This document shows positions 10,903 through 54,936 of a DNA stretch of 64,000 nucleotides, one piece after another (positions within the stretch are counted from its first letter, which is position 1; every line of letters begins with the position of its first letter). The DNA comes from a virus (lineage: Duplodnaviria; Heunggongvirae; Uroviricota; Caudoviricetes). The notes beneath the pieces are model-generated. The model saw nothing but the letters and a program-made list of their open reading frames with translations. It ran no database searches and was not told the DNA's origin. The stretch lies in IMG/VR virus record IMGVR_UViG_3300028048_000115, positions 18,061-82,060 of that record; one strand, 5' to 3'. The position numbers and the translations under genes are program-made.

Positions 10903-10916
10903 GATTTAATGCAGAA

Positions 10917-10943
10917 AGCACTCAAGATTGAGTGCTTTTTTAT
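10917..10943 (+). terminator. intrinsic terminator AGCACTCAAGATTGAGTGCT plus a T-tract (conserved terminator family)
   Basis: hairpin plus T6; the same stem is reused at 16493, 17185(-), 30548, 38528, 46243, 49780 and 54735. Confidence 0.7.
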
Positions 10944-10944
10944 A

Positions 10945-11100
10945 TTCATTTTTTGGATCCATTTAAAATTTTTGTATTTCCTATATATATAGAATATATA
11001 AATTTTTGTGTTTACACTTAATTTTTTGGATCCATTTAAAATTTTTTTGGATCCATTTAAAATTTTTTTGGATCCATTAAAAAATTATTGTGTCTGTACA
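10945..11100. repeat. array of the TTTTTTGGATCCATTTAAAATTTTT direct repeat (4 copies) plus an AT palindrome tatatatagaatatata
   Basis: read directly. Confidence 0.8.
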
Positions 11101-11123
11101 ATATAATTATTCAGTCTTTTTGA

Positions 11124-11192
11124 AAAGTCTTTATAAATCAATAACTTAGTAAGAGAACTATTTTTGTTAAGTCTTTGATTTATAAAGACTTT
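11124..11192. repeat. structured element: 18-bp perfect inverted repeat AAAGTCTTTATAAATCAA ... TTGATTTATAAAGACTTT around an approximately 33-nt loop
   Basis: read directly; further copies at about 17213-17285, 31365-31440, 38573-38635 and 54833-54900. Confidence 0.75.
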
Positions 11193-11210
11193 TTAAAAAA
11201 GCATTAAAAA

Positions 11211-11226
11211 TGTGATTTACATCACA
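11211..11226. promoter_or_regulatory. CRP-consensus-like palindrome TGTGATTTACATCACA upstream of a promoter
   Basis: perfect TGTGA-N6-TCACA; similar sites at 10309, 22357, 25555, 34381 and 54921. Confidence 0.5.
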
Positions 11227-16487: not shown

Positions 16488-16524
16488 GAAAAAAGCACTC
16501 ATTTTTGAGTGCTTTTTTATTTCA

Positions 16525-16690
16525 TTTTAAATTTTTTGGATCCATTTAAATTTTTTGGATCCATTTAAAAATTTTGTGTTTACACAATGCTTTTAAATTT
16601 CTATATATTGAATATATAAATTTTTTTGTGTTTACACTTAAATTTTTTGGATCCATTTAAAATTTTTGTGTTTTCACAATATCTAACATT
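16525..16690. repeat. array of the GGATCCATTTAAAA repeat (3 copies) plus an AT palindrome and tgtgtttacac motifs
   Basis: read directly. Confidence 0.75.
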
Positions 16691-16991: not shown

Positions 16992-17329
16992 GAATTAAAT
17001 AATGCGAACAACAAGAATTTATGATGCGGTTTCACGTTCAATTTATAAAGATAAAATATTTAGATATCCGAATTCACGGTCAGATGCGTTAGTTATTTTT
17101 TATAAAACATTATTTAATACATTGGTTAATCCACAGAAGTCAATAGACCTTAAAATGTATCTGAAGTCTTGATTAAAGCCAATAAAAAAGCACTCAAAAA
17201 TGAGTGCTTAAATAAAAAGTCTTTACAAATCAAAGACTTAACTAAAATAGATCTTTAACTAAGTTATTGATTTATAAAGACTTTTAAAAAACGTTAAAAA
17301 ATACTGAATAATTATTGTGTAAACACAAA

Positions 17330-17425
17330 AATTTTAAATGGATCCAAAAAAAAATTTATATATATTCTATATAGATACATTGTGAAAACACAAAAATTTT
17401 AAATGGATCCAAAAAATTTTAAACA
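17330..17425. repeat. GGATCCATTTAAAA repeat copies in reverse orientation plus an AT palindrome
   Basis: read directly. Confidence 0.7.
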
Positions 17426-22306: not shown

Positions 22307-22444
22307 TATGAAAATGTTATTGGTCTTCAGGCCAATAGCATTTAAACATTTTGAAATGTGATCTAAATCACAATAAAAAATAGTTGTTTTCTTATTATAA
22401 AGATATTATAATTATTATGTAAGTTGATTTTGAGAGGAAATAAA

Positions 22445-22951: not shown

Positions 22952-22968
22952 AAAGTTAGGATAACAAA

Positions 22969-23517: not shown

Positions 23518-23519
23518 AG

Positions 23520-24056: not shown

Positions 24057-24057
24057 A

Positions 24058-24576
24058 ATGGATAAGATTTTTAATAAAGAAGATGTGTTCACTAACATAA
24101 CTGCTGAAAACGCTAAAGTAGGCACAGTAGGATTTTTTGGTTATGGTCTGCAAGATTTAATTACTGCTGTGAAAGAGAATGATTTTCACGTATTATCAGA
24201 TGTTGACCAAACAGCACATTGTTTTAAGGCAAGTGACAACTGTTGGTATATCTTATTTTTACCATTATCCAAAGTCCTTAAACAACGTAAATACAGACCT
24301 TTTAAAAGTATTAGTGAACTGTTTGGTTTTCTAATGCCAGAGAATGAAGAAACTGATAACTTAAAAATGGTTGAAAAATTACTAGGCAAAAAAATTATTC
24401 TGAAGAACCCCGAAAATGGTCAATTCAAGGCTATGTTTATTCAAAATATTGAGTTCAATAACGATAGCAGTGATATAAACTTAAATTGCTTGTCTTTGGA
24501 ATATTTATTTAATATATACAAAGTTCTAATAAATGATTACTGGATTCCTTTTGGAGTAGAAATAAAAGATGAGTAA
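24058..24576 (+). CDS. paralog family member 4
   Basis: same motifs. Confidence 0.5.
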   Translation: MDKIFNKEDVFTNITAENAKVGTVGFFGYGLQDLITAVKENDFHVLSDVDQTAHCFKASDNCWYILFLPLSKVLKQRKYRPFKSISELFGFLMPENEETDNLKMVEKLLGKKIILKNPENGQFKAMFIQNIEFNNDSSDINLNCLSLEYLFNIYKVLINDYWIPFGVEIKDE

Positions 24577-24769
24577 AAGTTTATGCCAGCAACTAAAAGA
24601 ACAAGGCTTAAAATTCAATGATGGTATGATTTCAGAACGGTTTGAAGAAATGTTATATACCATTGAAGACTTACATCTATATGGATATATCACGGACGCT
24701 GAACACAAGAGGATTAGACAGAGATTTTTTAAGGATTTAGAAAATTTTACTTCCAAAATTGAGGAATAA
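24569..24769 (+). CDS. small hypothetical protein
   Basis: ORF track. Confidence 0.3.
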   Translation: MSKSLCQQLKEQGLKFNDGMISERFEEMLYTIEDLHLYGYITDAEHKRIRQRFFKDLENFTSKIEE

Positions 24770-25001
24770 AATGCAGTATCCAAACCCAAATCATTATGAT
24801 TGTCCTAATGATTACTATAATGCGGTAGACATATACTTTGAACAGTTAAGCATAGTTATGAAATTGAAGAACCAAAGTATGCCTATGACAAAAATAAAAA
24901 TGATTATTCAGAACGCTTCAAATACGGTAAATACAATAAATTTTTATCCTAGCAAAAAGAAGGCTTATATGTCCTTATTAAGGATAAATAAGAAAAGTTA
25001 A
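24759..25001 (+). CDS. small hypothetical protein
   Basis: ORF track. Confidence 0.3.
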   Translation: MRNKMQYPNPNHYDCPNDYYNAVDIYFEQLSIVMKLKNQSMPMTKIKMIIQNASNTVNTINFYPSKKKAYMSLLRINKKS

Positions 25002-25038
25002 GGAATTAACCTAAATACAAATCAAAAAGGAAATAAAA

Positions 25039-25548
25039 ATGGATTTATTTGATAAAGCAGATGTTCTTACTTGCATAACAGCAGATAAAGCTGTGGTAGG
25101 AACAAAGGGATATTTTGGAGATTGCTTACAGGGGTTAATTACCGCTGTGGAACATAATAATGTTCAAGCATTATCAGCTGTTTATAAAACTGAGGTTTAT
25201 TGTTTTAAGAATGAACACGGACAGAATTATAATTGCTTTTTACCAGCGAATAAAGTTAGAAAGACGACATACAGACCAATCAAGAATATTAAAGAACTCT
25301 TTGCTTTTATGATGGCTGATGGCAATGAATATTCAGAGGAAAAAATGGTAGATATCTTAATGGGTCAGCGTTATGTACTCAAAAGCAAACTCAATAATGT
25401 CATAAAATATCATACTGTAAATTCCTTATATATAGAGTCCGACGGAATGGTAACTCTTGATTACTTAGATTTAGATGATTTATTTGATTATTACGAGTTT
25501 AAGAAGGGTGATAAATTTGTGCCATTTGCTATTGAAGAAAGGAAATAG
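25039..25548 (+). CDS. paralog family member 5
   Basis: same motifs (C-terminal FVPFAI). Confidence 0.5.
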   Translation: MDLFDKADVLTCITADKAVVGTKGYFGDCLQGLITAVEHNNVQALSAVYKTEVYCFKNEHGQNYNCFLPANKVRKTTYRPIKNIKELFAFMMADGNEYSEEKMVDILMGQRYVLKSKLNNVIKYHTVNSLYIESDGMVTLDYLDLDDLFDYYEFKKGDKFVPFAIEERK

Positions 25549-25630
25549 TATTTTTGTGATCTAGGTCACACAATTATTTTTTATTCTGTTTTATAATATA
25601 TTTGTAAGAAAGATGAGGGAGAATAGAAAA

Positions 25631-26173
25631 ATGAAACTATTTAATAAAGAAGATGTTTTAACAGGCATAACTGCTGATAAAGCTGTTGTGGGAATGAAGG
25701 GTTTTGTCGGAGATAGTTTATCTGCGTTAAATGACAAGATAAGGCGAAATGATGTGAGCACCCTAACAGACATTGTTGGGAACTGTGCTTATTGCTTTGA
25801 AGTTGATCATAAAGAACAGCTTTATGCTTTCTTTTTGCCTGGCGAAAGAGTTATGAAACCAACATACCGACCAATAGCAACGGTTGATGAACTCTTTGAT
25901 TTTATACTTCCTGAATTTGAATTAGTAGGCGATGAATACGGAAAGCAGGTTGACTCATATAGAAAGGCTGAAATTCTGTTAGGCAAAAAATTAGTGTTAA
26001 AGGATTTAATCAATAACCGAACAAAAGTTACACTCATTCAAGACGTTGATTTTAGCAATGATGATGCTGATAGCAGTAATATATATTTAAATAACTTGTC
26101 ACTAGAATATTTATTTAACAACTTCAAAATTCAAATTAACGGTGAATTTGTACCATTTGGAATTGATGAATAA
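25631..26173 (+). CDS. paralog family member 6
   Basis: same motifs; own promoter module upstream. Confidence 0.5.
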   Translation: MKLFNKEDVLTGITADKAVVGMKGFVGDSLSALNDKIRRNDVSTLTDIVGNCAYCFEVDHKEQLYAFFLPGERVMKPTYRPIATVDELFDFILPEFELVGDEYGKQVDSYRKAEILLGKKLVLKDLINNRTKVTLIQDVDFSNDDADSSNIYLNNLSLEYLFNNFKIQINGEFVPFGIDE

Positions 26174-27479: not shown

Positions 27480-27531
27480 GGTTAAATTTCGAAATAGGGT
27501 TTTTAAAAGCATAAATATCTGGGCACCACAT

Positions 27532-28089
27532 TTGTGGTGCTTAAGTCAATTATATGAACTTAAAATGTTAAATCTTAAATCTTCCGATATTCCAAAAATA
27601 AGATCTGAAATTCTAAAAGAGCAGAATTACACTTGTCCTCTTTGCGGAAAACACATTACAGAGCAAGACAGAATTACTTTAGACCATCAGCACAAGCAGA
27701 GAAAATCTGATAACAATGGCGAAAACGGAAACGGTCAGGTTAGAGGTGTTTTGTGTGCTGACTGCAATGTATCTGAAGGAAAAATCTGGAACTCAACGAG
27801 CAGATTTCAAGGTGCTAGAACTCCACAGGACCGTATAAACTGGTTAAGAAAACTGATTGAATATTACTCAAAGGATCCATATCCTTATATACACCCAACA
27901 GAAGTGCAAAAGGAACCAGAACTTTCTAAAAAGAATTTTAACATTTTATTAAAAAGGTTTAAAGAAAAATATCCAAAGAAAAAACCTATTGAATATCCAA
28001 AATCAAAAAAGATGACCGCAACATTAAAACCTTTATATGAAGAATTTGAGATAAATCCTTATAATGGGACTGTTATTGAACGCACCTAA
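27532..28089 (+). CDS. recombination endonuclease VII (Holliday junction resolvase, T4 gp49-like)
   Basis: CPLCGK...LDHQH...GQVRGVLCADCNVSEG matches the Endo VII zinc and catalytic motif. Confidence 0.75.
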   Translation: MWCLSQLYELKMLNLKSSDIPKIRSEILKEQNYTCPLCGKHITEQDRITLDHQHKQRKSDNNGENGNGQVRGVLCADCNVSEGKIWNSTSRFQGARTPQDRINWLRKLIEYYSKDPYPYIHPTEVQKEPELSKKNFNILLKRFKEKYPKKKPIEYPKSKKMTATLKPLYEEFEINPYNGTVIERT

Positions 28090-28391
28090 ATTTCTGTTCT
28101 AATCAAACATAAATGTATATAAATAAAATATAAATATTTAAAAAGAAATATATGAGCTAAAAAGACTCATATTTTTATATAAAAAAGGTTTTAAAATGAT
28201 AACATTATTATTAATAGCATTTATGTTTTTTGGAGTTTTGATAAGTTTATGGTATTCAACAAGAATTGTTATAGATCTTAAAAAGACCAAACTTAAACTT
28301 GCTTGTTGCTCATATAAAGTTTCAACAATTAAAGAGCAGCTTACCGTGTTTAAAGCATCCTTAAAAGAGATCGACCGCAAAATTTCAATAA

Positions 28392-30536
28392 TTGAACAGA
28401 GTGTCCACAATGATAAAATTTAAGCAGATTTTAAACGAAAAAACACGCCTCGCAAAGGAATTGGATAGAGTTGAGAACGAACATGGTTCCGCAAATGCTA
28501 GTGAAGCGAAGAAACGTGTTTTTGGAAAAGCAAAAGGTCAAGCATTAAAAACTTGGTTAAATTCAAGAAAACAATACGACAAAAACGTAACAATGAAGGA
28601 TGCCCCATCCAGTATTAAAGACGCCAAAAACGCTGATGAACTTAGACAAGCCATTTCAAGGTGGAAAAACGACAAAAATTCAATTCTTAAAAACGGTTAT
28701 ATGACCGTTGCCTCATTACTTAGAGCAAATGACACCTCAGGCAAAGAAGGTGCAGAGTTAGAAAAACAGCACCGTGAAGAAAAAACTGGATCCGAAACCC
28801 CACAAGAAGAAACTTCACCAGATGGTAGTGATGAAACTCAATCAACTGAAATCACATCACAAGAGCAACCAACTGAAACTTCATCAGATGGTAGTGATGG
28901 AACTCAATCAACTGAAATCACATCACAAGAAGGTAGTGCTGAAACATCATCAGAAGGTAGTGCTGAAACAACATCAGCCGGTAGTAATGAAGAACTTTTA
29001 AAAAAGTTAAAAAATGGTGATGACCTTTCAAAAGAAGAACTTGAAAAACTTATAGAAATCGGAAAGGACGACCCAAATATTTCTGCTGAGGAATATTCCG
29101 CTTTAATGAAACAAAAAGATAAAGTGGAAGATGACCTGAACGCCCGAGACTTAGAAATGCAGAAACGACATAAGAGAGAAAAAAGCGTAGCAGATGCCAA
29201 CGAAGCATTCGCAAAAGCACTTGATGAATTTTTACAATCGTTTGGCTTTGATAGCAGATTTAAAGAAAAGGCAACAAGCAATAAAGAAGAAATTGAAAGA
29301 CAGCACGAACGTGACAGAAAATTAATTGAGCAGGAACGAAGTTTACAAGAAAAAACAAAATTAATCAAAGAAATGAATAAATCAGATTTTAGTTCATTAA
29401 GAAAAGCACAAAAAGAAAAAGAAACCGCGGAAATGGAAAAGATTGAAAAAGCTGGAAAACAGGAATTAGAAAATACTTTATCTGATCAACTCAATACAAA
29501 AATTGAAGAATTTAAAAATGGCCTTGAGGGAAATAATAAAACTCTTTTGGACACCATTAATGCTAATGAAAATGCTTTAAAGGACGCCGAAGAAAAATAT
29601 TCTAGTGCATTGTCAGAACTTGGAGACAATTTTAAGGATATAGACTTAAACAAAGCATTAGAGGCAGATGATAGTGTTCCTGATGAGGAAATAGTTGAAA
29701 TTTTTGGTGAATACTCAGCAGATGACGAAGAAGAGGAAATCAAACTCCCAGTTATGTATTTAAAGATGAGTATTGAGAAACTTAAAGAAACACAACCTAC
29801 CGTTGATGTAAAATATAAACCGCTAATTCAGCGACTTATTGTAACAAAGGAAAAGATTAAAACATTACAGGACGCTCAAAATAATGTTAGCACTTCAAAA
29901 TCAAATTTGGAATTATCAAAAAATAGTAATCCCGAACTTGTTAAACAACGTGATGAACTTTTAAGAGCATATAGTCCTGGTGGTGAAAAATATTTAGAAA
30001 CAGAAAAAAATATTAAAGAAAAAATAGAGAAAAGGAAAAAACAGAAGCAAGAAGAATTAGAACAGGAAAAATTGATCGCAGAAAAAAATTTAAAGGAAAA
30101 GGTTGTAGATGTTCGTTCCGAAATTAATGATATTCAAAAAGGTCTTTTAAAAACTTTAAGAGAATTGAGTAAGGTTGATTATGGCGAAAACCCTATATTA
30201 TTTATGGCTTTACAAAACGAAATTGAAAGCAAGACAGAGAATTTGAAAGCAAAAAACGAGCAATATAATAGTACCCTTGCCTCACTTGGTATAGATGTGA
30301 AATCACAATCTGAAGAAGACAAACTTTTTGGAAAAGAAAAATCTTTTGGAAGTAGTAAACCTTTTGGAAAAGAAAAATCTTTTGGAAGTAGTAAACCTTT
30401 TGGAAAAGATAAACACGCTAAAAATGAAAGTTTAAAGATTAATAAGTACGAAAATAAGAAAGCATTATGTGAATACTTGAAATTACGAAAAACAGATACT
30501 TTTAAATACAGAAAAGAATTTTTTGAAAGACTTTAG
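28392..30536 (+). CDS. large coiled-coil protein with acidic Ser/Thr-rich tandem repeats and a C-terminal KSFGSSKPFGKEK repeats
   Basis: ORF track; internal nucleotide tandem repeats at about 28800-28980 and 30330-30420. Confidence 0.5.
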   Translation: MNRVSTMIKFKQILNEKTRLAKELDRVENEHGSANASEAKKRVFGKAKGQALKTWLNSRKQYDKNVTMKDAPSSIKDAKNADELRQAISRWKNDKNSILKNGYMTVASLLRANDTSGKEGAELEKQHREEKTGSETPQEETSPDGSDETQSTEITSQEQPTETSSDGSDGTQSTEITSQEGSAETSSEGSAETTSAGSNEELLKKLKNGDDLSKEELEKLIEIGKDDPNISAEEYSALMKQKDKVEDDLNARDLEMQKRHKREKSVADANEAFAKALDEFLQSFGFDSRFKEKATSNKEEIERQHERDRKLIEQERSLQEKTKLIKEMNKSDFSSLRKAQKEKETAEMEKIEKAGKQELENTLSDQLNTKIEEFKNGLEGNNKTLLDTINANENALKDAEEKYSSALSELGDNFKDIDLNKALEADDSVPDEEIVEIFGEYSADDEEEEIKLPVMYLKMSIEKLKETQPTVDVKYKPLIQRLIVTKEKIKTLQDAQNNVSTSKSNLELSKNSNPELVKQRDELLRAYSPGGEKYLETEKNIKEKIEKRKKQKQEELEQEKLIAEKNLKEKVVDVRSEINDIQKGLLKTLRELSKVDYGENPILFMALQNEIESKTENLKAKNEQYNSTLASLGIDVKSQSEEDKLFGKEKSFGSSKPFGKEKSFGSSKPFGKDKHAKNESLKINKYENKKALCEYLKLRKTDTFKYRKEFFERL

Positions 30537-30545
30537 AATATAGAA

Positions 30546-30575
30546 AGAAAGCACTCAAGATTGAGTGCTTTTTTG
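30546..30575 (+). terminator. intrinsic terminator AGCACTCAAGATTGAGTGCT plus T-tract
   Basis: hairpin plus T6. Confidence 0.7.
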
Positions 30576-30589
30576 TGTTCACACAAATG

Positions 30590-30900
30590 TAATATTATTT
30601 TAAATTTCTATATATATAGAATATATAAATTTTTTGTGTTTACACAATTATTTTTTGGATCCATTTAAAATTTTTTGGTTCACACAATTATTTTTTGGAT
30701 CCATTTAAAATTTTTGTGTTCACACAATTATTTTTTTGGATCCATTTAAAATTCTTTTAAATTTCTATATATAGAATATATAAATTTTTTGTGTTTACAC
30801 AATTATTTTTTGGATCCATTTAAAATTTTTGTGTTCACACAATTATTTTTTTTGGATCCATTTAAAATTTTTTGGTTCCATTTAAAATTTTTTGGAGTCT
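30590..30900. repeat. largest array of the roughly 40-bp direct repeat unit (gtgtt[ct]acacaattattttttggatccatttaaaattttt), at least 6 copies, plus AT palindromes
   Basis: read directly. Confidence 0.85.
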
Positions 30901-30977
30901 AAATTTAATTAAAAATGTTTTTTTTTTAAAATATAAATAAATTAAAAATGTTTTTATAAAATATAAATAAATCAAAA

Positions 30978-31313
30978 ATGTTTAAAATGGGAAAACTTAT
31001 GAGAAAATTTTCAAAATTGATTTTAGAAGATTCATTTAATAGTAAGAGGATTGAAAAATTTTTAGTAGCAATTGCTAAAGATTCGAAGGACTTTAAGTGG
31101 GAGATGAGTGACCTTGATTTTGATGAGGTTTTTGAAAAAGGCGAAGGTGATTTCTTAACTTGTTTAACAAGTTTGAAGAAAGCAGCTGATTCAAGAAAAC
31201 TTGATACAATTGGAATTGTATTTCTTAAAACTGCCCGACCTGGCGATGACATCATTCTTAAATATGAACCAAAGAAGAAAAAGTGGTCATTATTTACATT
31301 AGCTGATATTTAA
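30978..31313 (+). CDS. hypothetical protein
   Basis: ORF track. Confidence 0.35.
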   Translation: MFKMGKLMRKFSKLILEDSFNSKRIEKFLVAIAKDSKDFKWEMSDLDFDEVFEKGEGDFLTCLTSLKKAADSRKLDTIGIVFLKTARPGDDIILKYEPKKKKWSLFTLADI

Positions 31314-31553
31314 TTTTAAAGCTCCTTAATTAAGGAGCTATTTTTGTCTATAAATTATTCAGTCTTTTTAAAAAGTCTTTATAAATCAATAACTTAGTAA
31401 GAGATATATTTTTGTTAAGTCTTTGATTTATAAAGACTTTTTTATTTTGTGAAAAAATTGTTAAAAAATATTTGCTTTTCTTATATACACATATTATAAT
31501 TATTGACATATTAATTTTATGGTGCTTGAGAAATATTTTAAAGGAGCGTTTAA

Positions 31554-32450
31554 ATGGATAAGCAAGACGTTGAATTAATCAAACCAGCTTTAATTTGGAT
31601 TTTTTTATTTTTATTTGGTGTTTTGTCCTTTTTCAACATTTATTTCATTGACGAAGGAGAAAGGTGTGTAAAAACAACCTTTGGTGAGGTGTCTGGAACT
31701 TGGGAACCAGGTTTACACTTTAAATTCCCATTGTTTCAGAGTGTTGAAGTTTATAATGTTAGGGTGCAAAAAACTGTTTTTGGTGATACTGAAAATATTT
31801 TAACGGCATATACAAATGACCAGCAGATTATCAAATCATACGTAATTTCGATAACCTGGAAGTATGACGCCAATAGAATTGCCGAAGTTTATAAAAATTT
31901 TGGAAGTTCAAGGTCTGATAATTCTGTGTTTTATACTGTTGTTTCACCATTGGTTCAGCAGACATCGAAGACTATTCTTGGTCAATACACAGCAAGTACA
32001 ATTGTTCAGGAAAGAGCAAAGTTAGAGAGTGCTTTAGACATTAAACTTAAAGAACAGTTAGCAAATTATCCTATTTCCGTAATTGGTGTTCAGTTAGAAG
32101 ATGTTAATTTTTCTGAAACCTATGAACAGGTAATTGAGCAGACCGCTCAGAAGAAAATGGAAATTGATAAAGCAAAAAACGAATTGCAGAAAATTGAGAT
32201 TGAAAGTAAGCAGGCTGTTGCAAAAGCAGACGCTGAAAATAAGGCAATTAAATTGCGAGCTGACGCTGACGCTTATCAGATTGAAATTAAAGCAAAGGCA
32301 GAAGCAAACGCAATTAAGTTAAAAGCAGAAGCACTTAAAGCAAATAAAGAACTTATTGATTTAACAATTGCAGAAAAATGGAATGGTAATGTTCCACAAA
32401 CTGTAATCGGAGATAAAGGTTCGTTAGTTCCATTGCTTAAGGTTCAATAA
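31554..32450 (+). CDS. SPFH/band-7 (prohibitin/HflC-like) membrane protein with C-terminal coiled coil
   Basis: N-terminal TM, then FIDEGERCVKTTFGEV...HFKFP..Q.V, then an Ala/Lys/Glu-rich coiled coil. Confidence 0.6.
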   Translation: MDKQDVELIKPALIWIFLFLFGVLSFFNIYFIDEGERCVKTTFGEVSGTWEPGLHFKFPLFQSVEVYNVRVQKTVFGDTENILTAYTNDQQIIKSYVISITWKYDANRIAEVYKNFGSSRSDNSVFYTVVSPLVQQTSKTILGQYTASTIVQERAKLESALDIKLKEQLANYPISVIGVQLEDVNFSETYEQVIEQTAQKKMEIDKAKNELQKIEIESKQAVAKADAENKAIKLRADADAYQIEIKAKAEANAIKLKAEALKANKELIDLTIAEKWNGNVPQTVIGDKGSLVPLLKVQ

Positions 32451-32486
32451 TCATTTAAGGGGACTTTTAAAAAGTCCCTTTTTTAT

Positions 32487-32580
32487 GAACTCTCGGAGTG
32501 TGACCTACATCTACCTAAAGGATAGATGCTTCCATTTAGAACTAATTCCAGTTCAAACATTTAGGACTTGTGTTACACTA
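32487..32580 (-). mobile_element. partial copy of the IS right end (hairpin plus variable segment) in minus orientation
   Basis: tgtgacctacatctacctaaaggatagatgcttccatttagaac... matches the right end at 57511. Confidence 0.55.
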
Positions 32581-32686
32581 AGCGCCATAAAAATTTTTTT
32601 TAAAAAAATATTTGCTTTTCTTATATAACATATTATAATTAATATGTAAGAAATTTTAAAATCTTATAAGTAAGAGGAAAGAGAGA

Positions 32687-33028
32687 ATGTTTAATTTTGA
32701 AGAAATTACCGAAAGAACAATGGAAATCACCAAGAACATTGAAAAGGCAAAGATTAGAGAACTTTTAGAAAAGGGTCATGGATTTGCTGTTATTCGTGAC
32801 AACGGTACTCTTGACATTTTTGGTGTTTGTGGATTTGCTGTTATCAAGTTTCGTGATTACAGAAAGGCATTTGCAAGAGCTTGGTTAAAGGAAAGTGGTT
32901 CAAGATCTTACTTTAGCAGTTGTTCAACCCAGGAACTTTCTATTCAACGTGAATGTGCTAACAAGGTTTGTGAATATCTTAACAAAACCTATAATGCTGA
33001 CGCCTACGTTTATTCTTGGGTTGATTAA
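32687..33028 (+). CDS. hypothetical protein
   Basis: ORF track; promoter module upstream. Confidence 0.35.
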   Translation: MFNFEEITERTMEITKNIEKAKIRELLEKGHGFAVIRDNGTLDIFGVCGFAVIKFRDYRKAFARAWLKESGSRSYFSSCSTQELSIQRECANKVCEYLNKTYNADAYVYSWVD

Positions 33029-33091
33029 AGAGTCACACTTTATAAATGTTTTATATATTATAGTAAAAAGTTAAATGTGAGGAATGTTATT

Positions 33092-33430
33092 ATGTGTATC
33101 AAAATTATTGGTGATACCAATTCAAAAATGCTTTTAAATAATGTTTGCCCATCAATTATCTCCAAAATCAACAGCGTTCTAAAAAAGTTAGATGTTTATG
33201 ACGCCATTCAACTTTGTTCAAAAATTGAGAATGAGTTGGGTTCTGGAATTGTGATTGGTAATGTTTGTCCTTTCTGCGGAAAACTTTCAACTGTTAAACT
33301 TAATAAAAAGCAGATGGATGCCTATGCAGAGTTTTTAAATGGAAATATCAGAGTTCAGGAAATTCCAAATTTAACCCCTGACGAAAGAGAGGTTTTACTT
33401 ACTGGAATTTGTGATGACTGTTGGATTTAA
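33092..33430 (+). CDS. zinc-ribbon protein (CPFCGK...CDDCW)
   Basis: two CxxC pairs. Confidence 0.35.
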   Translation: MCIKIIGDTNSKMLLNNVCPSIISKINSVLKKLDVYDAIQLCSKIENELGSGIVIGNVCPFCGKLSTVKLNKKQMDAYAEFLNGNIRVQEIPNLTPDEREVLLTGICDDCWI

Positions 33431-33521
33431 GGTTATAATCTATGCTTGTTAAAATTATAATTGTTTTGTACGTTTTATTTTTAATGCTCGCATTTTTTAG
33501 TCCTATGTTTTAGAGGTAAGC

Positions 33522-34001
33522 ATGAGGTACGTCTGTTCTGATTTGCATTTAGGAAGTGAGTATTGGAGTAAGGAAAGAGGATTTGCAACTCCAGACGAAA
33601 TGGATTTATACATTATCTCTAAGTTAAAGGAAAAAGTAAAAGAAGGAGATAAACTGTACATTTTAGGTGATGTTGCAAATTCCAAAAAGTCGTTGAAATT
33701 GCTTTCAGAGGTTCCTGGAAAGAAAGTTCTTGTCAAGGGAAACCACGATGTTTTTGAACTCAAGCACTATCTTCCTTATTTTTACGATATTCGTGCTTGT
33801 ATTGCAACGTATGACAAAAACAAAAATACGGTTTTATTGTCACATTTTCCAATACACCCAGATCAGTTTTCAAGGTATATCAAAAACGTTCACGGACATA
33901 TTCATAGAGTTTCTGATTTACCACAGGATAAAAGATATTTTGCGGTATGCTATGACATAAGAAAAGATTTTTTGTATTCTTTTGATGAGGTTGTAAACTA
34001 A
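33522..34001 (+). CDS. calcineurin-like metallophosphoesterase
   Basis: SDLHLG, GDV, GNHD motifs. Confidence 0.65.
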   Translation: MRYVCSDLHLGSEYWSKERGFATPDEMDLYIISKLKEKVKEGDKLYILGDVANSKKSLKLLSEVPGKKVLVKGNHDVFELKHYLPYFYDIRACIATYDKNKNTVLLSHFPIHPDQFSRYIKNVHGHIHRVSDLPQDKRYFAVCYDIRKDFLYSFDEVVN

Positions 34002-34120
34002 AAGGTACCTTTTAGAGCCAAAGGGACCTTTTAAAATATTGAAAAAGGGACTCTAAAAGTCCCTTTTAAATTTCAATTTAACAAAGGGTCGCAAATGCGA
34101 CCCTCTATTTTAAAATACTT

Positions 34121-34321
34121 TTAGTTCTGTTCAATTTTTAAAACATCATCTCTAACTACCCAATAAAACTCAACATAATCCCCTTCTGGATCAATGTCTT
34201 TTAACCACTCTTCAACAGGCCCGTCAAATAGAACAATATCAAGTTTATTGTCGTACATAAAAACCCTTTTAACGTTTTTCTCTTTAACTTCTTTTAAAAC
34301 TTCTTTGATGTTCATTTTCAA
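34121..34321 (-). CDS. small hypothetical protein
   Basis: ORF track. Confidence 0.3.
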   Translation of the reverse strand: MKMNIKEVLKEVKEKNVKRVFMYDNKLDIVLFDGPVEEWLKDIDPEGDYVEFYWVVRDDVLKIEQN

Positions 34322-34432
34322 TTCTCCTCTCTTAAAAATCTCTCTTACACTTATATTATATAATATTTTACAATAAAGAATGTGATCTAAATCACATTTT
34401 GATTATATAAATATACTAGAGGTAAAAATAAA

Positions 34433-35695
34433 ATGTTATTTAAATATTTAATGGAAGCAGGTCTTAACATCAATGGCAAAACATATCCAAAATTTGGAAA
34501 TGCTTTAATTTGTGCGGGTGGTGCTGGTTGTTTTGACGAAAACACACTCGTGAAAACTAATGAAGGGTACAAACGAATAAAAGACATTAAGACTGGCGAT
34601 CTTGTGGAAACGCTTAACGAAAATACAAACGTTTCCGAATTTAAGGAAGTTGAAGAATTAAAGGCATTTGAAAGCACAAAACCTATGATTAAGTTAACTT
34701 TTGACAATGGCGAAGAAGTAATCTGTACTGAAGACCACGAATTTTTAGTTGATGGCAAATGGGTAATGGCAAAAGATTTAAAAATTAAAAAAGAATATAT
34801 CAAAAATTATTCAAAAACAGTTTATGACCTTAAAATCAAAGACAACCATAATTACAAAATTACAGAGTCTGATTTAATAGTTCATAATTCAGGTAAGGGT
34901 TTTGTTCTCAATAATGTGTGTTTATTCCAGGGAAGAACTTTTGACGTTGATAACATCAAAAAGAACCTAATCAAAATGAAAGATACCACCGTAATTTATA
35001 AGAAGTATCTTGAATGGAGAAAACAAAATCCTTCAGCACCAGAAACCATCAATGACCTTAAACTTGAGGAGCCTGAGCACGTTTCTTTACTTCACAAATT
35101 CTCATCTGAAATGGGTTATGGTGACGCTGTAATTAAAACTTTTATCACAAATGCTTCATTATTACCTGCTGATAGAAAACCAAATGTAATTTTTGACTGC
35201 ACTCTAAAATCATTTTCAGATTTGACGGATTTTAAGAAAATGCTTGACTTAGGTGGTTATGACCCTAAAAATATTCATTTAGTTTGGGTGCTAAACAAAT
35301 TTGAAGTTGCTTTGAAACAAAATGATGAAAGAGAACGAAAGGTTTCCATAAATGTTATGTTCAAGACTCACGAGGGTGTTTCCGAAAATCTTAGCAATAT
35401 CCTTAAAGATTTAAACTCTATTCGAAACATTGTTGATGGCGATATTTGGATTGTTCCAAATCAAACTAAAGTTGATAATGACTCGGTTGTTTCATTAAGA
35501 AAAACCTTTAGTGGTAAAGAAGTAAAAAGCGTAAGGTACGTAAAAGAATATTCCGCTTATCAAGTAAAGAAATCTGGTAAAGCACCAAAATCTTACGATG
35601 AAATCTGTTCCGATGTGATTGATAATCTCCATAAGTCTAAGATTATTGATAAAATCAAGGATTACGTTCCAGTTTCAACAAAAGATAATTGGTAA
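34433..35695 (+). CDS. P-loop NTPase or nucleotide-kinase-like protein interrupted by a mini-intein in the Walker A motif
   Basis: extein junction ICAGGAG|CFDEN...IVHN|SGKGF reconstitutes GGAGSGKG; Hint domain blocks present. Confidence 0.6.
   Translation: MLFKYLMEAGLNINGKTYPKFGNALICAGGAGCFDENTLVKTNEGYKRIKDIKTGDLVETLNENTNVSEFKEVEELKAFESTKPMIKLTFDNGEEVICTEDHEFLVDGKWVMAKDLKIKKEYIKNYSKTVYDLKIKDNHNYKITESDLIVHNSGKGFVLNNVCLFQGRTFDVDNIKKNLIKMKDTTVIYKKYLEWRKQNPSAPETINDLKLEEPEHVSLLHKFSSEMGYGDAVIKTFITNASLLPADRKPNVIFDCTLKSFSDLTDFKKMLDLGGYDPKNIHLVWVLNKFEVALKQNDERERKVSINVMFKTHEGVSENLSNILKDLNSIRNIVDGDIWIVPNQTKVDNDSVVSLRKTFSGKEVKSVRYVKEYSAYQVKKSGKAPKSYDEICSDVIDNLHKSKIIDKIKDYVPVSTKDNW
34529..34888 (+). other. 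mini-intein (about 120 aa, no endonuclease domain)
   Basis: begins with Cys, ends in HN, next residue Ser; TGD.V, EDHEF and VHNS blocks. Confidence 0.6.
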
Positions 35696-35742
35696 GACTG
35701 GATAAATTTTTAAACATTATAAATACAATAAAGGAATAATTA

Positions 35743-36315
35743 ATGGATATTGTTGAAACTGCCGATAAGTTAGCAGAAAAGATCAATAAAATTTCTGCTT
35801 CTTTTTCCGAGCAACTTGAAAACGCAAATGCCTTAATCGTTCAGGGAGATGAACTTGACAGCCAGGCTGCCGAAGTTATCAAAGACGTGAAAGAACTGCC
35901 GGCACAGGAATATCGTTTCAATCTGGATTTATTACCTCAAATTTTAAATCTTGAGAATATGATGTCAGATGTAAAATATATCCGTGAAACCTTGCAGGAA
36001 AATTCAACTCTAGGAAGAAGACTTTTAAAGGTAATTTCTCAAGAAATTGAGTTTGAGCCAAATGCTGAACTGCTTGCTTCGTATTCTCAACTTTCAGCAA
36101 CTATAACTGACAATATGAGATTATATCTTTCCTGTTATAGAGATATATCACATATTTTAATAAACATTGCAAAATTGACTAGGGAAGCACAAAAAGAAAT
36201 CAACACCCAAAACAATATTCAAGTTAATATCCAAACACCAAGTTCAGAGGTTTTGAGCACCGCTGACTTAATCAAACAATTATCAAATCTTAAAGGAGAA
36301 AATAATGATAACTAA
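35743..36315 (+). CDS. hypothetical protein
   Basis: ORF track; TATAAATA-like box upstream. Confidence 0.35.
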   Translation: MDIVETADKLAEKINKISASFSEQLENANALIVQGDELDSQAAEVIKDVKELPAQEYRFNLDLLPQILNLENMMSDVKYIRETLQENSTLGRRLLKVISQEIEFEPNAELLASYSQLSATITDNMRLYLSCYRDISHILINIAKLTREAQKEINTQNNIQVNIQTPSSEVLSTADLIKQLSNLKGENNDN

Positions 36316-36703
36316 AAAACCTTGCATTTGTGGATGCCCAACAAATTGCACTTGTAATCAAAATTCAGAGGGTTCATATATCGTTGTTGAACCATTTTGG
36401 TTACAGCACGTTATGCTTAAAAAAGACCAAGTAATTCACGGACCAGTATCACCAAGATGGATACAATTAGGACTGATTAAACAGTATTCAGTTAAGACTG
36501 CAGCTGCTAAAAAAGCAGCCGAAACTGCTGTTAAGACTGCAAAAGTAGATGAAAGCACCAAGAAAGTTGAAACTAAAGTATCTAAACCTGAAAAGGTAAT
36601 TGAAACCCCTAAATGCGATACCGTAATTGAGGTTCCACAGCCATCAGAGGTTGTTCTTAACGAAGTTGCAAAAACTGAATTAAAGGATTTAACAAGGAAG
36701 TAA
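36305..36703 (+). CDS. hypothetical Cys-rich N-terminus, Lys/Ala-rich protein
   Basis: ORF track; ATGA overlap coupling with the upstream gene. Confidence 0.35.
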   Translation: MITKKPCICGCPTNCTCNQNSEGSYIVVEPFWLQHVMLKKDQVIHGPVSPRWIQLGLIKQYSVKTAAAKKAAETAVKTAKVDESTKKVETKVSKPEKVIETPKCDTVIEVPQPSEVVLNEVAKTELKDLTRK

Positions 36704-36737: not shown

Positions 36738-37469
36738 TCACCACCCAAATGGGTCTTTTTCTTCTGTATTAACAACTGACTTAAATTCCCTCTTATCAAG
36801 ATTTGGCTCTTCATAAACCTTAACGGAATTTAAGTCTTTTACCTCTGCTTCGTATTGGAGTTCTTCCTTTTCCTTGAGCAGAGTTTCAAAATAACCGTCG
36901 AGCACGTCATAATTTTCGTACTGAATTTCGGTGTCCTCTTTACTTTCAGTTTCTAAAGTATTGATCAAATCGGAATTATTCATATTACCCTCAAAATCGT
37001 GGAGCTTAAATTCATAAGCACGTAAAGTAAGTTTATAAGCACTCTTAGCATCCGAATATGCCCAAAGATTGTTGATACCTGGCACTTGCCATTCAACGTT
37101 TGTAATTTCCATAACCTTGTTTGAAGGGAAAATCACCAAAGATGAAAGCATTGTGTGCATATCAAGATTATATTTTGAGACCTCTTTAGCACTTATAAAA
37201 ACTTCACAGCTGTCTTGAATGTTTAGACCAAAATCGGAAAACATATAATTTCCTCTATCAAGGTCATCGGCATTTGATGGCAATAAATGAACATCAAAAA
37301 TGTTTTTATTGTCTGTTTTGACAGAACTCCAATCACCAAAAACCTCAATATCTACATTGTTTTTGTCGGTGACCAAAATTTTAGCGTCAATACCGTAAAG
37401 TCTGATTGCTTCGTCAATTAAATTAACGTTTAAAACGTATTCGTTTTTATGAGTAAAATTAAAATTCAT
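36738..37469 (-). CDS. hypothetical protein
   Basis: ORF track. Confidence 0.4.
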   Translation of the reverse strand: MNFNFTHKNEYVLNVNLIDEAIRLYGIDAKILVTDKNNVDIEVFGDWSSVKTDNKNIFDVHLLPSNADDLDRGNYMFSDFGLNIQDSCEVFISAKEVSKYNLDMHTMLSSLVIFPSNKVMEITNVEWQVPGINNLWAYSDAKSAYKLTLRAYEFKLHDFEGNMNNSDLINTLETESKEDTEIQYENYDVLDGYFETLLKEKEELQYEAEVKDLNSVKVYEEPNLDKREFKSVVNTEEKDPFGW

Positions 37470-37485
37470 GGTTTATATATAAAAT

Positions 37486-38521: not shown

Positions 38522-38851
38522 TTTTGAAATTTGAGCACTCATTTTTGGGTGCTTTTATGTGAATTTTTTAAAAGTCTTTATAAATCAATAACTTAGTTTT
38601 TAGTTAAGTCTTTGATTTGTAAAGACTTTTTTATTTAAGTACCAAAAATAGTTGTTTTTTTTTAATATAAAGATTTATAATTAATATGTGAGGAGAAAGA
38701 AAATGAAAGTTTTACGTTTTAACATACTTGGTACTCAACTGTGAAGGTCGCCCAAATGGTACAAATTGCCAACAAAGAATTAAATAGAATAAAATGGTTT
38801 TTAAGAAACTTGAAAATCCAAATAATGCTAATTTAAGCGAGGTTCGATAAA

Positions 38852-40527: not shown

Positions 40528-40528
40528 A

Positions 40529-54717: not shown

Positions 54718-54920
54718 AGGAATCCTTTTAAAAATAAAGCACTCAATTTTTGGGTGCTTTTTATTTTTTATTCACTTAAAAATTTTTGTGTTTTCATACT
54801 ATAATTATTCAGTATTTTTTACGTTTTTTAAAAAGTCTTTATAAATCAATAACTTAGTTGAAGATCTATTTTTGTTAAGTCTTTGATTTATAAAGACTTT
54901 TTATTTAAGGGAATAAAAAA

Positions 54921-54936
54921 TGTGATTTTTATCACA
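54921..54936. promoter_or_regulatory. CRP-consensus-like palindrome TGTGATTTTTATCACA followed by a MotA-box-like promoter
   Basis: read directly. Confidence 0.45.

What the first reader, a model, noticed from the sequence alone, without database searches (positions are those of the whole stretch)
30590..30900. Arrays of a roughly 40-bp direct repeat containing GGATCCATTTAAAA at five intergenic sites
The unit gtgtt[ct]acacaattattttttggatccatttaaaattttt occurs at least 6 times in 30590-30900. Shorter arrays occur at 10945-11100, 16525-16690, 17330-17425 (inverted) and 54770-54800, always together with the AT palindrome tatatatagaatatata. Spacing is irregular, about 18-45 bp, there is no cas gene, and copies are nearly identical. 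They look like iterons (replication origin or partition sites) or multimerised binding sites for a phage regulator. Each copy carries GATC.
Basis: seen in the sequence. Interest (0 to 1): 0.6.

Follow-up and report, generated by a model that had tools for sequence, protein, structure and literature searches.

The report
Repeat arrays in phage intergenic cassettes
An uncultured T4-like phage carries real arrays of three short palindromic ~20-bp motifs as an optional part of a movable terminator-to-promoter spacer between genes; they resemble repeat regions already known in related phages, and their function is still unproven.

Summary
The repeats are real. GGATCCATTTAAAA occurs 15 times against 0.12 expected, and independent assemblies carry the arrays base for base. 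The "40-bp unit" is two alternating ~20-bp units: A (TGGATCCATTTAAAA) and B (TTGTGTT[C/T]ACACAA). A third unit, C (TATATAGAATATATA), is interspersed. Four sites are true arrays; 54770-54800 is only a decayed remnant.

The arrays are an optional module of a repeated intergenic cassette: GC-hairpin terminator, array, long AT hairpin, a perfect CRP-type palindrome at about -41 or -60, then a sigma-70 promoter. The window is a T4-like myovirus, probably infecting Succinivibrionaceae.

A close relative has the same cassettes with different unit counts and orientation, between unrelated genes. Other relatives keep the flanking genes at 90-97% identity but lack the arrays. So the arrays are dispensable and turn over fast.

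My best reading is that they are multimerised palindromic protein-binding sites inside mobile PeSL-like cassettes that also serve as recombination patches. The closest known elements are T4-type PeSLs and the repeat regions of Campylobacter CP220-like phages. Nothing supports a replication origin. A partition role is only a remote possibility, raised by an actin-like (ParM-type) gene in the window. I rate it a new variant of a known kind, of moderate interest.

The parts
10913..10940 (+). T: GC-hairpin intrinsic terminator (AGAAAGCACTCAAGATTGAGTGCTTTTT), start of cassette 1
   Evidence: Terminator scan; repeat family D17; motif map.
10949..11103 (+). Array 1: A, C, B, A, A, A' and a degenerate B
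11123..11193 (.). E: long AT-rich hairpin with 19-bp perfect arms (AAAAGTCTTTATAAATCAA / TTGATTTATAAAGACTTTT). Each arm contains a match to the IHF core WATCAANNNNTTR.
11211..11226 (.). F: perfect CRP-type palindrome TGTGATTTACATCACA, centred about 60 bp upstream of the inferred start of the promoter whose -10 is at 11266-11271
16489..16518 (+). T terminator of cassette 2
16523..16680 (+). Array 2: A', A, B, C, B, A, B. It directly precedes the Tad2-like gene 16737-16991.
17188..17209 (.). T terminator, the reverse complement of the site-2 terminator. It is the junction of the inversion variant seen in L025.
17215..17285 (.). E hairpin of cassette 3
17314..17416 (-). Array 3, inverted relative to array 2. 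Read on the minus strand it is A, B, C, A, B.
30548..30571 (+). T terminator of cassette 4
   Evidence: -16.5 kcal/mol.
30572..30893 (+). Array 4, the reported locus: B, C, B, A, B', A, B, A, C, B, A, B, A, A'. It forms a 155-bp higher-order repeat.
   Evidence: identical in the independent assembly L031.
30907..30983 (+). 30-bp tandem repeat carrying two T4-type late promoter boxes (TATAAATA at 30932 and 30962), upstream of ORF 30978-31313
31371..31441 (.). E hairpin of cassette 4, separated from its array by ORF 30978-31313 and followed by a promoter at about 31462-31504
38532..38630 (+). Cassette without an array: T (38535-38552) plus E (38570-38630), then a promoter. The same arrangement occurs in relative L012.
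54736..54762 (+). T terminator of cassette 5
54765..54800 (+). Decayed single A-B remnant (TTCACTTAAAAATTTTTGTGTTTTCATAC). This is not an array.
54831..54936 (.). E hairpin (54831-54901) and F CRP-type palindrome (54921-54936) upstream of the promoter whose -10 is at 54976-54981

Best explanation
The arrays are the iterated, optional module of a family of mobile intergenic regulatory cassettes in a T4-like phage. A full cassette reads: GC-hairpin terminator (T), array, long AT hairpin (E, with matches to the IHF core), CRP-type palindrome (F) at class I or class II distance, then a sigma-70 early promoter.

Each ~20-bp array unit is a short palindromic core flanked by T-tracts: A = TGGATCCA+TTTAAAA, B = TTGTGT-NN-ACACAA, C = TATATA-GAA-TATATA.

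**Inferred mechanism.** The cores are operator-like sites for dimeric sequence-specific DNA-binding proteins, phage-encoded or host. Strung about two helical turns apart, they build a multi-protein complex on double-stranded DNA at the boundary between one transcription unit's terminator and the next promoter. This complex would act as a boundary or roadblock, or as an upstream regulatory platform.

**Shown by comparison.** The arrays grow and shrink by slippage and unequal crossing-over. Together with T and E they supply homology patches at which gene modules are exchanged, inserted or inverted between related phages.
For: **Cassette anatomy.** The order of parts is constant in the window and in the relative IMGVR_UViG_3300028048_000136.

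**Cores conserved, spacers not.**
- 21 of the 24 A cores compared, from both phages, are exact and the other three have one mismatch.
- Information content is 2.0 bits across TTTTGGATCCATTTAAAA.
- Flanking T-tracts vary from 5 to 9 T and outer flanks fall below 1 bit.

**Geometry.** Centre-to-centre spacing clusters at 19-21 bp in the window and 21-25 bp in the relative.

**DNA-level rather than RNA-level.**
- A single B-A unit has no structure of its own (z = 0.27).
- Arrays lie downstream of strong terminators.
- One array (L003) is inverted relative to both flanking genes and to E.

**Regulatory context.**
- F occurs 7 times against 0.10 expected.
- F is centred at about -41.5 (10309, 25555) or about -60 (11211, 54921) from inferred starts.
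- The likely host is gammaproteobacterial: the phage flagellin is closest to Succinivibrio flagellins.

**Mobility and recombination.**
- The same cassette sits between non-homologous genes in the relative.
- Arrays are absent upstream of the Tad2-like gene and of the SPFH (Band 7 family) gene in relatives with 90-97% identical flanks.
- The Tad2-like module is bracketed by inverted arrays.
- An inversion variant joins exactly in the inverted T hairpins (L025).
- A/B hybrid units and a 155-bp higher-order repeat are present.

**Precedents in related phages.** PeSLs (PMC4122927) and CP220/CP21 repeat regions (PMC4546147).
Against: - No binding protein is identified. Pfam and PHROG scans of 66 further ORFs listed no HTH or RHH regulator among the top 25 families shown. 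The genes flanking the arrays are unrelated to one another.
- Core invariance could reflect recent spread or gene conversion rather than selection, because the only array-bearing comparator is a close relative (93-95% in shared genes).
- Spacing is not strictly helically phased (vector strength about 0.47).
- The arrays are dispensable in relatives, so any function is accessory.
- Array position relative to promoters is inconsistent: site 3 is at a convergent junction, and at site 4 a gene separates the array from E.
Confidence: 0.42

Rival explanations
1. The arrays are functionless minisatellites. They are by-products of slippage and unequal crossing-over inside PeSL-like cassettes, tolerated because the terminator-to-promoter gap is the only neutral space in a compact phage genome. 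Their only effect is to add homology for recombination.
For: - Presence or absence differs between close relatives.
- Unit number and order vary, T-tract lengths vary, A/B hybrid units occur, and there is a higher-order duplication.
- A decayed remnant sits at 54765-54800.
- The PeSL paper describes slipped, degraded copies of cassette parts.
- The CP220 repeat regions have no assigned function.
- More distant relatives L046 and L048 carry unrelated tandem arrays of differing copy number at one intergenic site.
Against: - Three different palindromic cores are kept almost invariant while their spacers drift.
- The A core is better conserved between the two phages (about 99%) than the surrounding cassette (74-93%).
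- Pure slippage would not be expected to keep three interleaved core types at roughly two-turn spacing.
Confidence: 0.3
2. The arrays are iteron-type replication origins. An initiator binds the A/B iterons, the AT palindrome C melts as the unwinding element, and GATC methylation times firing.
For: - The form resembles iteron origins: ~20-bp iterons, an AT-rich palindrome, GATC in each A unit.
- T4 has several origins, one of which (oriE) contains iterons (my own knowledge, not checked here).
Against: - No Rep or initiator gene lies next to any array; the flanking ORFs are unrelated and have no family hits.
- Cumulative GC skew shows no inflection at any array.
- Arrays are absent from relatives with conserved flanks.
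- Arrays are always embedded in the terminator-promoter cassette.
- T4-type origins normally work through R-loops from promoters (my own knowledge).
Confidence: 0.07
3. The arrays are dispersed centromere-like sites. An unidentified adaptor binds them and couples phage DNA to filaments of the phage's actin-like ParM/Alp protein (ORF 42304-43287).
For: - The window encodes an ALP: Pfam ALP_N 7.6e-12 and MreB-like_C 1e-9, PHROG 'partition protein' 6.4e-37.
- The ALP is conserved in Va1-like, CP220-like and Rhizobium T4-like phages.
- Known type II centromeres are arrays of 10-20-bp direct repeats. sopC is 12 x 43 bp, each unit with a short palindrome. N15 has dispersed centromeres. (All three from my own knowledge.)
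- CP220-like phages with the same ALP also have dispersed repeat regions.
Against: - No array lies within 10 kb of the ALP gene.
- The gene just downstream of the ALP is the sliding clamp, not a ParR.
- Va1 has the ALP but no comparable arrays; its one 12-bp repeat near the gene is coding.
- No repeat units lie next to the CP21 ALP gene.
- Arrays are dispensable in relatives.
Confidence: 0.07
4. The arrays act through DNA shape alone, or through host nucleoid proteins. They would be phased A/T tracts giving curved DNA that boosts nearby promoters or recruits H-NS, Fis or IHF.
For: - T5-9 and A4 tracts recur every ~20 bp.
- Site 1 and part of site 4 fall in the most curved 1-6% of 120-bp windows under a wedge model.
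Against: - Curvature is not consistent: site 2 is at the 15th percentile and site 3 at the median.
- AA/TT periodicity is unremarkable at sites 2 and 3.
- Shape alone would not need invariant GGATCC or GTGT..ACAC cores.
- Site 3 has no downstream promoter.
Confidence: 0.05

Closest known systems
PeSLs (promoter-early stem-loops), the mobile regulatory cassettes of T4-type phages (Arbiol et al. 2010, PMC2839356; Comeau et al. 2014, PMC4122927)
   Same: - Composite stem-loop terminator plus sigma-70-like early promoter.
- Many near-identical copies between small genes of variable regions.
- Located at insertion, deletion and replacement boundaries between close relatives.
- Slipped or degraded copies occur.
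   Different: - PeSLs as described have no array of iterated ~20-bp palindromic units, no second long AT hairpin and no CRP-type site.
- The sequences are unrelated.
- Minicircle formation was not tested here.
Repeat regions RR1-RR4 of Campylobacter group II (CP220/CPt10/CP21, Firehammervirus) T4-like phages (PMC4546147)
   Same: - Same broad phage clade: shared ALP at about 50% and DNA polymerase at about 34% amino-acid identity.
- Several closely related extragenic repeat regions dispersed in the genome.
- Arms in direct or inverted orientation that can enclose genes.
- Unit numbers differ between close relatives.
- Implicated in module inversion and shuffling; function unknown.
   Different: - CP220 units are 72-86 bp with core AAACTTAAAGCAA. 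That core is absent from the arrays here.
- CP220 regions are 1-2.9 kb with up to 18 units per arm. Here the arrays are 100-320 bp of ~20-bp units of three types.
- Here the arrays are embedded in a terminator-promoter cassette.
BIMEs / REP elements of enterobacterial chromosomes
   Same: From my own knowledge: mosaic arrays of short palindromic units with characteristic linkers, placed in extragenic DNA just after the 3' ends of transcription units. Some carry IHF sites (RIB/RIP) and bind gyrase.
   Different: - REP units are ~35-bp imperfect palindromes that act partly as RNA stem-loops and alternate in orientation.
- The units here are 8-15-bp cores with no RNA structure, in a phage, and unrelated in sequence.
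Plasmid/phage centromeres and iteron arrays (R1 parC, pSK41 parC, F sopC, N15 dispersed centromeres)
   Same: From my own knowledge: tandem 10-43-bp direct repeats, each carrying a short palindrome, bound cooperatively by an adaptor. A ParM-like gene is present in the window.
   Different: - No adaptor gene and no linkage to the ALP gene.
- Multiple dispensable copies.
- The context is a lytic T4-like phage.

Membership tests
PeSL-type mobile regulatory cassette (T4-like phages) | A stem-loop terminator placed just upstream of a sigma-70-like early promoter, Shine-Dalgarno sequence and start codon | tested here: met
   T and/or E hairpins are followed by promoters with a TATAAT -10 box at 11266, 54976, about 31495 and about 38680.
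PeSL-type mobile regulatory cassette (T4-like phages) | Many near-identical copies in variable regions rich in small ORFs | tested here: met
   Six cassettes lie in 64 kb among small unannotated ORFs.
PeSL-type mobile regulatory cassette (T4-like phages) | Cassettes coincide with indel or replacement boundaries between close relatives | tested here: met
   The same cassette sits between unrelated genes in IMGVR_UViG_3300028048_000136. The Tad2-like and SPFH genes appear in other contexts without the cassette. L025 is an inversion through the T hairpins.
PeSL-type mobile regulatory cassette (T4-like phages) | The element consists only of stem-loop plus promoter, with no iterated-site array | tested here: not met
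   Arrays of 5-14 A/B/C units are inserted between T and E. This is the feature that makes it a variant.
PeSL-type mobile regulatory cassette (T4-like phages) | Excision of minicircles by recombination between neighbouring cassettes | not testable with these tools
   This needs PCR or long reads from infected cells.
CP220-type repeat regions | Several closely related extragenic repeat regions dispersed in a T4-like genome, with unit number varying between relatives | tested here: met
   description of the family.
CP220-type repeat regions | 72-86-bp units containing the core AAACTTAAAGCAA | tested here: not met
   The core is absent from the arrays. Three one-mismatch hits lie elsewhere, far from every array. 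Units here are ~20 bp.
CP220-type repeat regions | Bipartite arms, direct or inverted, enclosing unique sequence or genes | tested here: met
   Arrays 2 (+) and 3 (-) bracket the Tad2-like gene and ORF 17002-17172. At site 4 the array and E are separated by ORF 30978-31313.
Iteron-type replication origin | An adjacent or cognate initiator (Rep) gene | tested here: not met
   Flanking ORFs are unrelated to one another and have no family hits. No Rep family appears in the scans (only the top 25 families are listed).
Iteron-type replication origin | Iterons plus an AT-rich unwinding element | tested here: inconclusive
   The form is compatible (A/B units plus the AT palindrome C), but this is also true of many non-origin arrays.
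Iteron-type replication origin | Replication actually initiates there | not testable with these tools
   GC skew shows no inflection, but skew is uninformative for T4-like phages.
Type II (ParM/ParR/parC) partition locus | An actin-like ATPase gene | tested here: met
   ORF 42304-43287: ALP_N plus MreB-like_C, and phrog_691.
Type II (ParM/ParR/parC) partition locus | A small DNA-binding adaptor (ParR) encoded next to the ATPase | tested here: not met
   The upstream neighbour is a TAGT glycosyltransferase and the downstream neighbour is the sliding clamp.
Type II (ParM/ParR/parC) partition locus | A repeat-array centromere adjacent to the par operon | tested here: not met
   The nearest array is more than 11 kb from the ALP gene. 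Va1 and CP21 show no array at their ALP genes.
CRISPR array | Identical repeats separated by unique spacers of similar length | tested here: not met
   There are no unique spacers; units abut through T-tracts. The only Cas12f-like domain hits are IS605 TnpB proteins.
CRP-dependent promoter (for motif F only) | A TGTGA-N6-TCACA palindrome centred near -41.5 or -61.5 | tested here: met
   Seven perfect sites against 0.10 expected. Centres fall at 41.5, 41.5, 59.5 and 59.5 from inferred starts. Start sites are inferred, not mapped.

The most novel reading that the evidence does not exclude
The arrays are dispersed centromere-like loading sites. An unidentified adaptor would bind the A/B/C palindromes and tether replicating phage genomes to filaments of the conserved phage actin-like protein (ORF 42304-43287). 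That would make these the first cis-acting sites defined for the ALP system shared by Va1-like, CP220-like and Rhizobium T4-like phages. It would also offer a function for the unexplained CP220 repeat regions.
Probability: 0.06. Interest if true: 0.8.

Novelty: new variant of a known kind. Interest (0 to 1): 0.38.

Why it matters
Large lytic phages shuffle accessory and anti-defence genes at repeated intergenic cassettes, but what those cassettes contain beyond a terminator and a promoter is poorly described.

This lineage adds two features. The first is an iterated module of three palindromic sites. The second is apparent wiring to host CRP-type and possibly IHF-type factors. It also brackets an anti-Thoeris-like (Tad2-like) gene with inverted arrays.

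If the units are real binding sites, they would reveal a phage or host factor that marks boundaries between transcription units. They would also give a testable handle on the unexplained repeat regions of Campylobacter therapy phages, whose genome instability is a safety concern. If the units are only slippage products, they are still useful markers of recombination hot spots, and they break assemblies of such phages.

Tried and rejected
- **Nucleotide searches of known phages.** A megablast of the region around the main array (28000-34000) and a sensitive blastn of cassette 1 against 50,697 phage records found nothing.
- **Motif-pair scans of public collections.** IMG/VR, JGI metagenomes and GTDB genomes gave only one related phage contig plus chance or unrelated hits: L004, L008, L011, and L007/L009.
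- **Searches for orthologous loci.** The 714-aa and SPFH flanking proteins and the DNA polymerase found no relatives in IMG/VR.
- **Rfam.** No hit at gathering threshold, and only sub-threshold noise at the arrays, the E hairpin and the second repeat family.
- **RNA-level function.** Rejected: a unit has no structure, the arrays lie behind terminators, and orientation is not fixed.
- **Arrays as promoters.** B carries TTTACA and A carries TAAAAT, but they are 21 bp apart. Only weak 9-of-12 matches arise between adjacent A units.
- **C as a late promoter.** C contains TATAAATT, whereas the phage's late box is TATAAATA (19 of 21 copies intergenic).
- **Intrinsic curvature.** Inconsistent across sites.
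- **SeqA/Dam clustering.** GATC is not globally unusual, and the spacing is too wide in the main array.
- **Paralogous flanking genes.** None.
- **Known operator consensus sequences** (DnaA, LexA, Fis, IHF, LacI-family, parS, SlmA). Compared by eye from memory; no convincing match for A, B or C.
- **A centromere upstream of the Va1 ALP gene.** The 12-bp repeat there is coding, SESV repeats.
- **Repeat units next to the CP21 ALP gene.** Absent in the record examined.
- **Host inference from TnpB.** The hits were small contigs binned into Bacillota MAGs. One of them also carries phage NrdD, so they are probably phage DNA.

Full report
**1. Observation**

Reading 30400-31100 shows the repeats directly.
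- GGATCCATTTAAAA (up to 1 mismatch) occurs 15 times in the window, against 0.12 expected from 100 dinucleotide-preserving shuffles.
- Tandem Repeats Finder reports, for the main locus, a 20-bp period (12.5 copies), a 40-bp period (6.2 copies, 78% matches) and a 155-bp higher-order repeat.
- A motif map resolves the "40-bp unit" into two alternating ~20-bp units: A (TGGATCCATTTAAAA, preceded by T5-9) and B (TTGTGTT[C/T]ACACAA). A third unit, C (TATATAGAATATATA), is interspersed.
- True arrays lie at 10949-11103, 16523-16680, 17314-17416 (minus strand) and 30572-30893.
It is one decayed A-B remnant.
- The arrays are not assembly artefacts. An ENA contig (ERZ27252073 k141_365980) matches all four arrays base for base, and its only difference across 27518-36450 is a 36-bp indel in a coding repeat. 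JGI 3300026525 and Logan SRR8442993 contigs cover sites 1 to 3 or break off inside the cassettes; one contig end differs in a T-run.

**2. What the genome is**

- The window encodes a split B-family DNA polymerase, clamp and clamp loader, gp32, RNase H, DNA and RNA ligases, NrdD (with an intein) and NrdG, endonuclease VII, gp55-like sigma factors, tail and neck proteins, and glucosyl/TET-associated glycosyltransferases.
- TATAAATA, the T4 late-promoter box, occurs 21 times. Nineteen copies are intergenic and most lie 9-40 nt upstream of a start codon.
- The closest cultured relatives are Vibrio phages of the Va1/phiKT1024 group (polymerase 48%, actin-like protein 60% identity), with the same gene order: ALP, clamp, gp32, RNase H. 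Campylobacter CP220-like phages come next.
- GC content is about 31%.
- A phage-borne flagellin gene (4082-4987, minus strand) is most similar, among named proteins, to Succinivibrio flagellins at about 51%. This points to a Succinivibrionaceae (gammaproteobacterial) host in gut or rumen samples. That is an inference.

**3. Anatomy of the surroundings**

Every array sits in a repeated intergenic cassette. The parts, in order, are:
- **T.** A GC-hairpin intrinsic terminator (GCACTCA-N4-TGAGTGC plus T6; -16.5 kcal/mol).
- **The array.**
- **A conserved junction** (ATAATTATTCAGT).
- **E.** A long hairpin with 19-bp perfect arms (-31.7 kcal/mol, z = -7.2). Each arm contains a match to the IHF core WATCAANNNNTTR (weak evidence in AT-rich DNA).
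- **F.** A perfect TGTGA-N6-TCACA palindrome.
- **A sigma-70-type promoter.**

F occurs 7 times against 0.10 expected. It is centred 41.5 bp (10309, 25555) or 59.5 bp (11211, 54921) upstream of inferred transcription starts. That is the geometry of class II and class I CRP-dependent promoters (established knowledge). F-type sites at the same distance from TTGACA-17-TATAAT promoters also occur in more distant relatives (L046/L048).

The array is optional and its placement varies:
- Cassettes at 38532-38700 and in L012 are T-E-promoter only.
- Site 2 lacks E.
- Site 3 lies at a convergent junction.
- At site 4 a late-promoter-driven ORF (30978-31313) with its own terminator separates the array from E.

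**4. Properties of the units**

- Of the 24 A copies compared across both phages, 21 are exact and three have one mismatch. The block TTTTGGATCCATTTAAAA scores 2.0 bits at almost every position. T-tract lengths (5-9) and outer flanks vary.
- B and C cores are similarly conserved. B has a C/T polymorphism and a few degenerate copies.
- Adjacent motif centres are 18-23 bp apart in the window and 21-25 bp in the relative. This is roughly two helical turns but not strictly phased.
- Hybrid units (TTGGTTCACACAA, GGTTCCATTTAAAA) and the 155-bp higher-order duplication show unequal exchange in register.
- A single B-A unit has no secondary structure beyond shuffles (z = 0.27). The whole-array fold is only diffuse pairing between palindromes; the centroid is nearly unstructured.
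- Predicted curvature is high at site 1, moderate at site 4, ordinary at site 2 and median at site 3.
- GATC is not otherwise unusual (observed/expected 0.70), whereas CATG is strongly avoided (0.12).

**5. Comparative evidence**

- IMGVR_UViG_3300028048_000136 (same as Ga0256405_10001293; loci L001-L003, L010) is a close relative, 93-95% identical in the few shared segments. It carries the same cassettes with different unit numbers and order, including one array inverted relative to both flanking genes and to E. It also has an extra unit type (TTGTGACCTCACAAAGATGTGTTCATACAAAAA, three copies).
- The genes flanking its cassettes have no homologues in the window.
- Relatives from SRR28408242, SRR28408176, SRR21150810 and others keep the Tad2-like gene and its neighbour at about 90% identity but have no A, B, C, E or T. 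The sequence that lies beyond the inverted array 3 in the window abuts the gene directly in these relatives.
- Relatives with the SPFH gene at 96-97% identity have a mini-IS element and a promoter upstream instead of the cassette.
- In JGI 3300037691, contig L025 joins 16660-17209 to the reverse complement of 14491-16521 exactly within the two T hairpins, which are inverted copies of each other. This is the product expected from inversion of the Tad2-like module. It rests on one short-read contig and needs long-read confirmation.
- Va1 has no comparable arrays.
- More distant flagellin-bearing relatives have unrelated 59- and 125-bp tandem units after the flagellin terminator, and their copy number differs between contigs.

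**6. Interpretation**

*Shown.* The arrays are a real, lineage-specific, optional and fast-evolving module of mobile terminator-promoter cassettes. Those cassettes mark the junctions of gene-module exchange.

*Inferred.* The units are operator-like binding sites on double-stranded DNA. The reasons are:
- three distinct palindromic cores of the size bound by dimeric proteins;
- core invariance against drifting spacers;
- roughly two-turn spacing;
- no RNA structure;
- independence of orientation;
- a position among other apparent factor sites (F, and possibly E).

My best guess is a multi-protein boundary or regulatory complex between transcription units (confidence about 0.4). The main rival is functionless slippage DNA that matters only as recombination homology (about 0.3).

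The origin and partition readings are weak. No initiator or adaptor gene was found, the arrays are not linked to the ALP gene (42304-43287), they are dispensable in relatives, and Va1 has the ALP without arrays.

**7. Comparison with known elements**

The cassette meets the descriptive criteria of PeSLs: terminator plus early promoter, many copies in variable regions, and location at indel boundaries (PMC4122927). It adds the iterated module, a second long hairpin and CRP-type sites.

The arrays behave like the repeat regions of Campylobacter group II phages: dispersed, extragenic, with direct or inverted arms enclosing genes, variable unit numbers and module inversion (PMC4546147). They differ in unit size (20 versus 72-86 bp), total size and sequence. 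The CP220 core AAACTTAAAGCAA is absent from the arrays.

Resemblances to BIME/REP mosaics and to parC/sopC centromeres are formal only. No known phage record shares the sequence, and Rfam has nothing.

**8. Verdict**

This is a new variant of a known kind of element: intergenic repeat and regulatory cassettes of T4-like phages. It is of moderate interest. Its main value is as a tractable case for asking what such repeat regions bind, and as a marker of module shuffling around anti-defence genes.

Noticed in passing
window 14372-14612, 37468-37711, 40458-40650, 57511-58976 (minus strand); L003 16-198: A second dispersed repeat family (D19 plus D3), highly conserved over about 115-240 nt, with hairpin-extending insertions in one copy. 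In the minus-strand copy a frameshifted TnpB (ORFs 58409-58690 and 57555-58214) sits between the D19 and D3 parts. The compact copies therefore look like miniature IS200/605-type elements that keep the left end and the omega-RNA/right end. There is no Rfam match.
   Followed up: partly
window 1939-3171: An intact IS605-family TnpB (OrfB_IS605 plus Cas12f1-like TNB). It is an insertion polymorphism, absent from otherwise collinear contigs L051 and L052. Homologues at about 70% identity lie on small contigs binned into Bacillota/Bacilli MAGs; one of these also carries phage NrdD, so they are probably phage DNA.
   Followed up: partly
window 4082-4987 (minus strand): A complete flagellin gene (Flagellin_N 4e-36, Flagellin_C 2e-20) in a T4-like phage. 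It is closest to Succinivibrio flagellins (about 51%). Homologues at 58-59% occur in other T4-like phage contigs (L046, L048, L049).
   Followed up: partly
window 42304-43287: An actin-like ParM/Alp-type protein between a TAGT glycosyltransferase and the sliding clamp. It is conserved in Va1-like Vibrio, CP220-like Campylobacter and Rhizobium T4-like phages. No ParR-like partner was found.
   Followed up: partly
window 16737-16991: A Tad2-like (PF11195, anti-Thoeris family) gene bracketed by inverted repeat arrays. In relatives it sits in a different context without arrays. Contig L025 shows the module inverted through the T hairpins.
   Followed up: partly
window 10309, 11211, 22357, 25555, 34381, 42399, 54921: Seven perfect TGTGA-N6-TCACA (CRP-type) palindromes against 0.1 expected. 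Six are intergenic, and four are at class I or class II distance from -10 boxes. This suggests that phage early promoters depend on a host CRP/FNR-family activator.
   Followed up: partly
window 49867-50895 (minus strand): A 342-aa reverse transcriptase (RVT_1 2.8e-17; PHROG reverse transcriptase). About 110 nt next to its 3' end (49743-49853) recurs at 83% identity upstream of the Tad2-like gene in relatives L024, L026 and L030. It may be a retron or a diversity-generating element; this was not examined.
   Followed up: no
window 22424-26173: Six ORFs of about 170-186 aa, in tandem apart from one short intervening ORF, appear from nucleotide repeat families D5, D9, D10, D12 and D14 to be paralogues. 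Function unknown.
   Followed up: no
window 59154-62414 (minus strand) and 34433-35695: The NrdD gene is interrupted by an intein with a homing-endonuclease-like segment. A separate 420-aa ORF carries a Hint/intein-splicing domain.
   Followed up: no
window 30326-30361: A 36-bp indel polymorphism between assemblies, inside the 18/36-bp coding tandem repeat of the 714-aa acidic repeat protein (28392-30536), just upstream of the main array.
   Followed up: yes
whole window: CATG is strongly avoided (19 observed, 155 expected). CCGG, CGCG, TCGA and AGCT are also depleted. This suggests restriction pressure. The phage also encodes several glycosyltransferases (TAGT, glucosyl-HMC type) and a UDP-galactopyranose mutase, which implies hypermodified DNA.
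   Followed up: no
L007 2950-3650 and L009 (Ga0154020_10004185): An unrelated 17-kb metagenome contig with very few ORFs and more than 30 tandem 19-20-bp iterons of several subtypes (for example AATGTATCCATTAAAAACT and ATGGATCCATTTAAAAAT), present as an inverted duplication.
   Followed up: no
L046 10838-11384; L048 10838-11268: Distant flagellin-bearing T4-like relatives have a long intergenic region after the flagellin terminator, filled with 59-bp and 125-bp tandem units containing CTAAGA-N-TCTTAG palindromes. Copy number differs between the two contigs.
   Followed up: partly
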